A stretch of 64,000 nucleotides of DNA from an uncultured Verrucomicrobiae bacterium. Its GTDB lineage: Bacteria > Verrucomicrobiota > Verrucomicrobiia > Chthoniobacterales > UBA10450. Shown one piece after another: positions 26,229 to 29,116 of the stretch (its first letter is position 1; every line of letters starts with the position of its first letter). The notes beneath the pieces are model-generated. The model worked only from the letters and a program-made list of their open reading frames with translations, was not told where the DNA came from and did not search any database. A program made the position numbers and the translations under genes. The DNA lies in the NCBI GenBank assembly GCA_963726745.1, contig CAVSDR010000003.1:416001-480000 (forward strand), written 5' to 3'.

Positions 26229-29116
26229 ATGACTAACGAATTCAAGACCCTGCAAAAGTTCGACGCCGGCAACGGCCGCGAAGCCCAGTTCCATTCCTTG
26301 CCCGAGCTGGAGAAACAAGGTGTCGGCAAAATCTCCCGGCTCCCGGTCAGCATCCGCATCGTCCTGGAGTCGGTCCTGCGGAATTGCGACGGCAAGAAGG
26401 TCCGTCGTAAAGACGTCGAGACGCTCGCAAACTGGAACGCGAAGAAGCCGGCGAACGAGGAGATCCCTTTCGTGGTCGCGCGCATCGTCCTGCAGGATTT
26501 CACCGGCGTGCCGCTGGTGGTCGATCTCGCGGCCATGCGCAGCGCGGTGAAGTCGTTAGGCGGCGACCCGAAAATCATCGAGCCGCTCGTCCCGGTCGAC
26601 CTCGTGGTCGATCACTCCGTGCAGGTGGATTTCGCCGGCTCCGCGCAGGCGCTCCAGCTCAACATGGAGATGGAATTCAAGCGCAACCGCGAGCGCTACG
26701 AGTTCCTCAAGTGGGGCCAGCAAGCCTTCAAGACCTTCGGCCTCGTCCCGCCCGGCATCGGCATCGTCCACCAGGTGAATCTCGAGTATCTCGCCAAGGG
26801 CGTGCTCGCGAAGGATGGCGTCTATTTCCCCGACACCCTCGTCGGGACCGACTCGCACACGACCATGATCAACGGCCTCGGCGTCGTCGGCTGGGGCGTG
26901 GGCGGGATCGAAGCGGAAGCCGGCATGCTCGGCCAGCCGGTTTACTTTTTAACGCCGGAAGTCGTCGGCGTGCACATGACGCGGCGCGATCCGCGAAGGC
27001 GTGACCGCGACCGATCTCGCGCTCCACATCACGCAGATGCTGCGCGCGCAAAAGGTGGTCGGCAAATTCGTCGAGTTCTACGGCGAAGGCGCGGCCTCGT
27101 TGCCCGTGGCCGACCGCGCGACCATCGGCAACATGGCGCCGGAATACGGCGCGACCATGGGCTTCTTCCCGATCGACGAGGAATCGGTCGCCTACCTGCG
27201 CGCGACCGGCCGGACCGAGGCGCAGTGCACCGCTTTCGAGAACTACTTCAAGGCGCAAAAGATGTTCGGCATTCCGCGGAAGGGCGAGGTCGATTACAGC
27301 GTCGATCTCGAGCTCAATCTGGCCGACGTCCAGCCGAGCGTGGCCGGACCGAAGCGCCCGCAGGACCGGATCAATCTCCCGGAATTAGGCAGCACTTTCC
27401 GCACGCTCTTCACCAAGGGGGTGAAGGATGGCGGCTACGGCAAGAGCGAGGACTTGTTAGGCAAACGCTTCCCGCTCGAACTGAACGGCGACGCGCATCC
27501 GACCAACGGCGAGCTCGAGGAAGCGAGCGTCGACAGCGCGACCGACACCGGCGAAGGGATGAAGGAAGGCGGCCAGGTGATCGGCCACACCGCGGGCGAC
27601 CGCGAGATGGTCACGAACCGCCCCACGGCCACGCCGGCCGATTTGCTCGCCTCCGCGCATGCGCAGGAATTCCAGGATGGCCACGCCGAGATCGGCCACG
27701 GCAGCGTCCTCATCGCCGCGATCACCAGTTGCACGAACACGAGCAACCCGAGCGTGATGCTCGCCTCCGGATTGCTCGCGAAGAAAGCGGTCGAGCGCGG
27801 CCTGAAAGTCGATCCGTCGGTCAAGACTTCGCTCGCGCCCGGCTCGCGCGTGGTCACCGATTACCTGAACAAGACCGGCCTGCAGACCTACCTCGACCAG
27901 CTCGGTTTCCAGACCGTCGGCTACGGCTGCACCACCTGCATCGGCAACAGCGGCCCGCTCGATCCGAAGATCGAGAAAGCGATCAACGAAAACGATCTCA
28001 TCGCGGCCAGCGTCCTTTCCGGGAACCGCAACTTCGAGGCGCGCGTGCACCAGAACATCAAGGCGAACTTCCTCATGTCGCCGCCGCTGGTGGTCGCCTT
28101 CGCCCTCGCCGGGCGGGTCGATATCGATCTCTCCAAGGAGTCGTTAGGCAAGGACAAGGACGGCCAGGACGTTTACCTGCGCGACCTTTGGCCGACCCTG
28201 CAGGAAATCCGCGACACCCTCCGCACCGCGCTCACGCCGGAAGTCTTCCAGCGGCTTTACCGCGACTTCAGCGCGCAGAATCCGAAGTGGAACGAAATCC
28301 CATCGAGCACCGGCGAGATCTACGAGTGGGATCCGCAGAGCGATTACATCCACGAGCCGCCGTTCTTCCAGAACTTCGGGATGGAAGCCGGCCAGATCGC
28401 CGACATCAAGGATGCGCGCCCGCTCGGCATCTTCGGCGACTCGGTCACGACCGATCACATCTCGCCCGCCGGCGCGATCAAGGCCTCCTCGCCCGCCGGG
28501 AAATATCTCCAGTCGCGCGGGATCGAAGCGGCCGATTTCAACAGCTACGGCTCGCGCCGCGGCAACGACCTCGTGATGACCCGCGGCACCTTCGCCAACG
28601 TCCGGATCAAGAACCTGATGGTCCCCGGCGTCGAAGGCGGCGTGACCAAATTCCAGCCCGGCGGCGAGCAGATGTCGATCTACGACGCGGCGATGAAATA
28701 CCAGGCAGCGGGCACGCCGCTCATCATTCTCGCGGGCACGGAATACGGCACCGGCTCCAGCGCGCGACTGGGCGGCCAAAGGCACCCGTTTGTTAGGCGT
28801 GAAGGCCGTGGTCGCCGCCAGCTTCGAGCGCATCCATCGCTCGAACCTCGTCGGCATGGGCGTGCTTCCGTTGCAATTCGAAGACGGCACCAGCGCGCAG
28901 TCGTTAGGCCTGGACGGCAGCGAGACCTACAGCCTCACCGGCCTGTCGAACGAGATTCAGCCCGGCCAGATGGTCACGCTCGAAATTAGCCGGCAAGATG
29001 GCGGGAAGCAGACCGTCCCGGTGAAGCTTCGCATCGATACCGCGATCGAGATCGACTACTACCGCCACGGCGGCATCCTGCCATTCGTCTTACGCGAACT
29101 GGTCGCGCGCGGCTAA
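26229..29116 (+). CDS. acnA: Aconitate hydratase A (apparent frameshifts near 26985 and 28765)
   Basis: [64 protein letters not shown]. Confidence 0.96.

What the first reader, a model, noticed from the sequence alone, without database searches (positions are those of the whole stretch)
26553..28909. The motif overrides codon bias inside conserved genes
Seen: in acnA, which is otherwise strongly GC3-biased, all three Ser-Leu-Gly tripeptides I found are TCG-TTA-GGC (26553, 28141, 28901), and TTA-GGC recurs near 27385, 27458 and 28794. Across the window 13 copies read as Ser-Leu-Gly with TTA (including two in serS), others as CCT-AAC-GAx (Pro-Asn-Glu/Asp), CTA-ACG (Leu-Thr) or GTT-AGG (Val-Arg). 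Several frames and both strands are used. Inference: the pressure acts on DNA, not protein, as reported for DUS/USS accumulation.
Basis: partly seen in the sequence, partly recalled or inferred. Interest (0 to 1): 0.7.

Follow-up and report, generated by a model that had tools for sequence, protein, structure and literature searches.

The report
Two independent DNA words overwrite genes
This uncultured soil bacterium has written two different short DNA words thousands of times through its ordinary genes, even changing conserved amino acids, and its relatives use a third word; the pattern resembles the DNA-uptake tags of Neisseria and Haemophilus, but what reads the words is unknown.

Summary
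Confirmed, and larger than reported. Word A (TCGTTAGGC) has 1,312 copies in this 3.41 Mb Chthoniobacterales genome. 493 of 816 Ser-Leu-Gly use it, against 3.4 expected. It arises by substitution, is non-polar, and in AcnA replaces a near-invariant Pro. The scan found word A before, in this genome and others.

New here:
- A second word, B (1,641 copies), which explains the 27385 site. It is enriched in only 2 of 150 family genomes.
- A third word, C (up to 4,653 copies), in other genera.
- Like words avoid each other within about 300 bp, while unlike words do not. This points to separate, saturating readers. The effect is weak in the A-richest genome.

Best reading: molecular drive through sequence-biased DNA uptake or recombination of short fragments (0.55). 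Uptake is untested and no reader was found. Five candidate genes do not track the words, and DUS-style terminator pairs are absent. Nothing on word A was found in the papers searched.

The parts
26229..29116 (+). acnA (aconitate hydratase), host gene of the sites; read as three segments, with two probable assembly indels near 26981 and 28762
26553..26561 (+). Word A, exact, reads Ser-Leu-Gly; none of the 63 homologue rows printed has Ser at this column
28141..28149 (+). Word A, exact, reads Ser-Leu-Gly; 68 of the 76 homologue rows printed have Pro and none has Ser
28901..28909 (+). Word A, exact, reads Ser-Leu-Gly; same codons in two A-rich relatives (L003, L006), ordinary codons in the others printed
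27454..27462 (+). Word A with one mismatch (second base), reads Leu-Leu-Gly
28790..28798 (+). Word A with one mismatch (second base), reads Leu-Leu-Gly; same word in L003, L004, L006
26231..26239 (-). Word A with one mismatch (eighth base) on the opposite strand, over the first codons of acnA
27385..27399 (+).
28986..29000 (+).
29479..29497 (-). Direct tandem of an exact and a partial word A, 11 bp apart, downstream of acnA
1..64000 (.). Whole window: 32 exact A and 26 B sites, dispersed on both strands

Best explanation
The words are protein-recognition sites that have accumulated by molecular drive. Fragments carrying a word are favoured at some step of acquiring or recombining homologous DNA, so point changes towards the word spread even at a cost to codons and amino acids. 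At least two readers act independently: reader 1 sees word A (family-wide), and reader 2 sees word B here and perhaps word C in other genera. One site serves a tract of roughly 300 bp, so a second like site nearby gains little while an unlike site gains in full. Shown: over-representation, DNA-level action, substitution origin, non-polarity, several words, like-word spacing. Inferred: protein readers, drive, uptake as the biased step, tract length, kinship of B and C.
For: 1,312 exact A against 35 expected from the masked genome, with core one-mismatch variants at background. 493 of 816 SLG against 3.4 expected; SLG 1.74x, PNE 2.43x, PND 1.94x, reversed controls 0.88-1.38. All 58 A and 68 B sites align to relative G181 without gaps, and only 5 and 2 are kept exactly. 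Amino-acid identity is 59% at A sites against 79% nine residues away. Density rises from 126 to 443 per Mb with GC3, and the rRNA stretches have none. Pairs 20-250 bp apart: A-A 47 vs 122 and B-B 84 vs 145 (0 of 200 shuffles as low), A-B 303 vs 246, 21 ordinary 9-mers 0.84-1.44; repeated for A-A and C-C but not A-C in 200 kb of G062. G000 has ComEC, DprA, PilT, PilB/C and a PilM-PilQ-like operon; ComEC is in 143 of 151 family genomes. The A-richest of 39 viral loci is a provirus at host-like density.
Against: No functional test and no reader. Competence genes are common (ComEC in 10 of 14 control genomes), and the nearly word-free G059 has them too. G000's ComEA helix-hairpin-helix part is only a fragment. 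There is no ComP match over the cut-off and no inverted terminator pairs. Spacing is weak in G083 (0.71-0.82 at 50-250 bp, 1.70 below 50 bp). Codons next to sites are also divergent (66%), and word-coded SLG is kept in G181 no less often than other SLG (11 of 29 vs 2 of 11), so part of the protein signal is permissive location. Unchecked scan notes report the same word in other phyla, which fits a species self-tag poorly.
Confidence: 0.55

Rival explanations
1. Direct selection for chromosomal binding sites of two or more sequence-specific proteins (nucleoid organisation, repair or self-marking), each needing about one site per few hundred bases.
For: The same non-polarity, equal coding and spacer density, and like-word spacing. 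Word C forms direct tandems at 15-16 bp (9 of 18 gaps under 60 bp in G062), as for cooperative binding. An intracellular reader explains the same word in unrelated taxa as easily.
Against: A-word counts run from 13 to 4,336 within one family, and sites turn over between congeners. Motif-free gaps reach 11.6 kb. No 10.5 bp phasing among pairs up to 500 bp apart.
Confidence: 0.25
2. HIP1-like: a methyltransferase marks the word, and methylation-dependent uptake, recombination or heteroduplex repair fixes it.
For: An orphan N6/N4 methyltransferase is in 142 of 151 family genomes. HIP1 raises transformation in a methylation-dependent way (abstract). Word C contains short palindromic sub-sites.
Against: That enzyme is equally present in A-rich, C-rich and word-poor genomes, including G059. 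The words are non-palindromic and 9-15 bp long.
Confidence: 0.1
3. Word A is an integron or tyrosine-recombinase core site spread by integrase activity.
For: A contains the integron core consensus (consensus recalled; lead from scan note e1-8163093). Integron integrases are in 96 of 150 family genomes: 28 of the 35 A-richest against 7 of the 21 A-poorest (hand tally; kin not independent). In other families the word clusters at cassette-like spacing (G028, G029).
Against: G000 has no integrase over the cut-off, only two tyrosine recombinases. The A-richest genome (G083) has none and the A-poorest (G059) has one. Sites arise without indels. B and C do not fit the core. No dif-like site was found.
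Confidence: 0.08
4. Mutational bias, codon-pair preference or assembly artefact.
For: The assembly has indel errors.
Against: The word recurs in 129 of 150 independently assembled genomes, uses the rarest codons in four frames, and shows a sharp exact-match peak.
Confidence: 0.02

Closest known systems
USS of Pasteurellaceae (9-bp core; PMC2817400 and PMC7811141, passages read)
   Same: About one non-palindromic 9-mer per 1-3 kb, mostly inside genes; arises by point change; roughly doubles the encoded tripeptides; scarce in newly acquired DNA and rRNA.
   Different: Unrelated sequence and phylum. Two independent words in one genome. Coding density is about equal to intergenic. Rare codons are used heavily. 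Uptake is untested.
DUS of Neisseriaceae and its dialects (PMC3630211, PMC2397512: abstracts and passages; 10.1101/2025.10.24.684340: abstract)
   Same: Lineage-specific words across one family; sites sit in permissive regions; spacing has been linked to conversion-tract length.
   Different: DUS dialects share a 3-base core and often form inverted terminator pairs. Here A and C share no evident core, co-exist at thousands of copies (G062, G084), and show no terminator pairs. No ComP.
HIP1 of cyanobacteria (PMC5861425 passages; 10.1101/2024.09.10.611283 and PMC13756078 abstracts)
   Same: A hyper-abundant word inside genes, under DNA-level selection, linked to transformation.
   Different: HIP1 is a methylated palindrome with periodicity of tens of kb. 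These words are asymmetric, show about 300 bp self-avoidance, and no matching methyltransferase was shown.
Chi and KOPS sites (recalled)
   Same: Short asymmetric over-represented words.
   Different: A and B lie 51.7% and 51.5% on the G-rich strand, against 79.9% for a KOPS-like control.
Integron attC/attI core site (consensus recalled)
   Same: Word A contains the core consensus.
   Different: Single dispersed copies without hairpin partners; no integrase in this genome; B and C do not match.

Membership tests
DUS/USS uptake sequences | Hundreds to thousands of copies of a short asymmetric word, far above chance | tested here: met
   1,312 A and 1,641 B against reversed controls of 59 and 41
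DUS/USS uptake sequences | Arise by substitution, not insertion; enrich the encoded tripeptides | tested here: met
   0 gaps at 126 aligned sites; SLG, PNE, PND 1.7-2.4x
DUS/USS uptake sequences | No replication polarity; scarce in atypical DNA and rRNA | tested here: met
DUS/USS uptake sequences | Inverted pairs in transcription terminators | tested here: not met
   12 opposite-strand A pairs within 150 bp, no preferred spacing
DUS/USS uptake sequences | Competence machinery present | tested here: inconclusive
   ComEC, DprA and type IV pilus genes present; ComEA helix-hairpin-helix only a fragment
DUS/USS uptake sequences | Dedicated pilin receptor (ComP; PpdA predicted) | tested here: not met
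   PF16732 best hit E 8.8e-4, under cut-off, N-terminal half only; PpdA not searched genome-wide
DUS/USS uptake sequences | The word increases DNA uptake | not testable with these tools
   needs a transformation or uptake assay
HIP1 | Palindromic octamer | tested here: not met
   A, B and C are asymmetric
HIP1 | Methylated by cognate orphan methyltransferases | tested here: inconclusive
   family-wide orphan enzyme does not track the words; methylation itself not testable
Chi/KOPS | Strong leading-strand polarity | tested here: not met
   51.7% and 51.5% vs 79.9% control
Integron recombination site | Paired inverse core forming a hairpin; integrase in the genome | tested here: not met
   single copies; no integrase over cut-off

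The most novel reading that the evidence does not exclude
An abundant family of soil Verrucomicrobiota runs a multi-channel DNA-tag system. Several separate, gained-and-lost readers each drive their own word into the genome over tracts of about 300 bp, matched to short degraded soil DNA, so one genome carries a combinatorial identity code (A+B, A+C, A only) that rewrites its proteome. The A reader may be shared with unrelated soil phyla.
Probability: 0.3. Interest if true: 0.9.

Novelty: new variant of a known kind. Interest (0 to 1): 0.7.

Why it matters
In the papers read, sequence-specific uptake tags are described for two host-associated families, with HIP1 a recent candidate. A comparable signature in an abundant soil lineage, with two independent words per genome and a measurable reach of about 300 bp, gives a natural test of molecular drive against direct selection, and a phylogenetic handle for finding the readers. 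It also means that half of all TTA codons, about a quarter of TAA/TAG stops and some conserved residues in this genome reflect DNA-level pressure, which confounds codon-usage and selection analyses.

Tried and rejected
Reader candidates that do not track the words:
- PilX-like tip protein: 89 of 151 genomes, not found in G045 or in several A-rich genomes.
- Verru_Chthon cassette D-like pilin: 13 of 151.
- Orphan methyltransferase: 142 of 151.
- Nuclease-ComEA fusion: present in word-poor G059, absent from several C-rich genera.
- The window's pilin at 16326-16952: 119 of 151, including G059; GspG-like.

Other dead ends:
- An apparent fourth word in G059 was a tandem repeat.
- A single long template joining A, B and C: no exact locus, and no C-type tail after B sites.
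- dif/XerD-arm idea: no dif site recognised.
- Helical phasing: none.
- No close relative was found for dating sites: best SerS match 82% in metagenomes; one run held 10% of the words.
- Samples of 29-60 kb from four other families showed no comparable dispersed word; small samples.
- The cross-phylum claim could not be checked: no Gemmatimonadota record was reached.
- The Maughan 2010 simulation paper was not held.
- Papers were not searched for the literal B or C words, and no supplements were read; genome-survey supplements could list these words.

Full report
Observation. The window has 32 exact copies of word A (TCGTTAGGC), 15 on the plus and 17 on the minus strand, against about 0.4 expected. 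The genome (3.41 Mb, 7 contigs) has 1,312 copies, 324-531 per Mb on every contig, against 59 for the reversed word. The nearest named AcnA relatives are Chthoniobacterales.

With my own gene calls (3,659 segments), 493 of 816 Ser-Leu-Gly use the word's codons; independent codon use predicts 3.4. The exact word holds 493 of 2,948 TTA, 231 of 1,180 CTA and 68 of 542 AGG codons. Counting relaxed A and B words, 1,479 of 2,948 TTA and 161 of 367 ATA codons lie in a word, as do 458 of 1,725 TAA/TAG stops. Of 1,312 copies, 1,015 are inside coding segments in four frames, 162 at boundaries and 135 intergenic; densities are 332 and 381 per Mb. One-mismatch variants at the five core positions are at background; only the second, eighth and ninth positions (and modestly the flanks) tolerate change. 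The pressure is on DNA.

Origin and cost. Against 377 kb of congener G181 (196 alignments, 77% amino-acid identity, third positions saturated), all 58 A and 68 B sites align without gaps; 5 and 2 are kept exactly, and 43 of 58 A sites differ in protein. Identity is 59% at A sites, 66% in adjacent codons and 79% nine residues away; for B it is 61, 69 and 75%. Sites therefore favour permissive regions, and word-coded SLG is not less conserved than other SLG (11 of 29 vs 2 of 11). The clearest override is 28141, where 68 of 76 printed homologue rows have Pro and none has Ser. A density rises with GC3 from 126 to 443 per Mb, both words are scarce in low-GC islands, and the 16S and 23S stretches counted have none.

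A second word. A mixture model on all TAG contexts separated two motifs, about 2,200 A-type and 2,700 B-type sites. Word B (WTAGNCRRCNNNWTS) has 1,641 matches against 41 control, 26 of them in the window, including 27385 and 28986 in acnA. Among 150 family genomes B is enriched only in G045 (677 vs 45) and weakly in G015 (119 vs 46). G045 is unpublished; that count and its variant tail rest on it.

Distribution. By hand tally, A reaches at least twice its reversed control in 129 of 150 family genomes and at least 1,000 copies in 35 (maximum 4,336). Sixteen genomes of other families of the order have 1-19 copies, and none of 199 genomes of other families of the phylum exceeds its control for the 8-base form. 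A-poor genomes led to word C (AAGATCGACA): at least 300 copies in 36 of 150 genomes, up to 4,653 in G062, against 22 here (its reversed control is uninformative). A and C both exceed 1,000 copies in G062 and G084. B and C align in one register, with a shared four-base centre and similar tails, so they may be dialects of one site; this is inference. The tallies include unpublished G001, G008, G045 and G155, and kin are not independent.

Spacing. Against shuffles within 20 kb blocks, pairs 20-250 bp apart number 47 vs 122 for A-A and 84 vs 145 for B-B (0 of 200 shuffles as low), but 303 vs 246 for A-B; 21 ordinary 9-mers give 0.84-1.44. The A-A deficit fades at about 330 bp. In 200 kb of G062, A-A is 0.19-0.62 below 200 bp, C-C 0.41-0.56 at 50-150 bp and A-C 0.76-1.28. 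In 200 kb of G083 the deficit is weak (0.71-0.82) and pairs under 50 bp are in excess. C forms direct tandems at 15-16 bp (9 of 18 short gaps). There is no polarity (51.7% and 51.5% vs 79.9% for a KOPS-like control), no terminator-type pairing and no helical phasing.

Mechanism. Self-avoidance without cross-avoidance is what two separately saturating readers would give if one site serves a tract of a few hundred bases (inference). Drive through biased uptake or recombination fits the rapid turnover and the roughly 300-fold range of A counts. G000 encodes ComEC, DprA and a type IVa pilus, but so do many bacteria, and its ComEA-like helix-hairpin-helix is a fragment apart from the nuclease domain. 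None of five candidate genes tracks the words. Integron integrases are common in the family and lean towards A-rich genomes (28 of 35 vs 7 of 21) but are missing here and in the A-richest genome. Of 39 viral loci found with a 14-base seed, 32 had only the seed copy; the richest is a provirus with 15 copies in 42.7 kb, as expected for DNA resident in the host.

Known systems and novelty. It works statistically like USS/DUS (passages of PMC2817400, PMC7811141, PMC2397512 and PMC3630211; abstract; listing only) and like HIP1 (passages, abstracts). It is not filed under either, because terminator pairs, ComP and palindromy were tested and not met. Searches for the literal A word (30 of 250 hits listed, none on this by title or abstract) and for the taxon with repeat, uptake or methylome terms found no description. 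Earlier scan notes report word A in this and related genomes, and the same core in Gemmatimonadaceae and Steroidobacteraceae (the latter two unchecked). One look-up for a second co-existing word returned none. Verdict: real; a new variant of a known kind; interest 0.7.

Noticed in passing
L299-L310 (family genomes); G000:C4:17257-17900 and C2:230178-230270: The family's ComEA-like protein is a secreted fusion of a staphylococcal-nuclease-like domain and a C-terminal helix-hairpin-helix. In G000 the two parts are separate and the second is a fragment.
   Followed up: partly
G000:C3:981206-982042 (L121): Orphan N6/N4 DNA methyltransferase conserved at about 70% identity in 142 of 151 family genomes; target unknown.
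   Followed up: partly
window 16326-16952: Mostly single-copy, fast-evolving GspG-like pilin in 119 of 151 family genomes; best but sub-threshold ComP-model hit in the genome.
   Followed up: partly
G000:C3:584-587 kb, C6:623-626 kb; L318-L331: At least three paralogous three-gene minor-pilin clusters, patchily swapped among family genomes at fixed housekeeping loci.
   Followed up: partly
window 12505-13787, 26981, 28762: serS and acnA carry apparent frameshifts, probably long-read assembly errors.
   Followed up: partly
window 29189-29476: Small ORF with a weak LuxR-type helix-turn-helix match just after acnA, followed by the tandem A site.
   Followed up: no
window 22005-22414 (-); 7345-7425, 17004-17074, 35155-35226: RNase P RNA and three tRNAs; an exact A (22379) and a B site (22046) lie inside the RNase P gene.
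   Followed up: no
G028:C2 and C7; G029:C75: In other families the A word occurs in clusters 400-1,300 bp apart, like integron cassette arrays.
   Followed up: no
G000 genome-wide: Highly repeated 6-base-period words (about 150 and 60 copies of overlapping 12-mers), probably tandem repeats, unrelated to A and B.
   Followed up: no
genus g21 (16 genomes): Mostly poor in A, B and C, and in integron integrases (3 of 16); may have lost the system or use an undetected word.
   Followed up: partly
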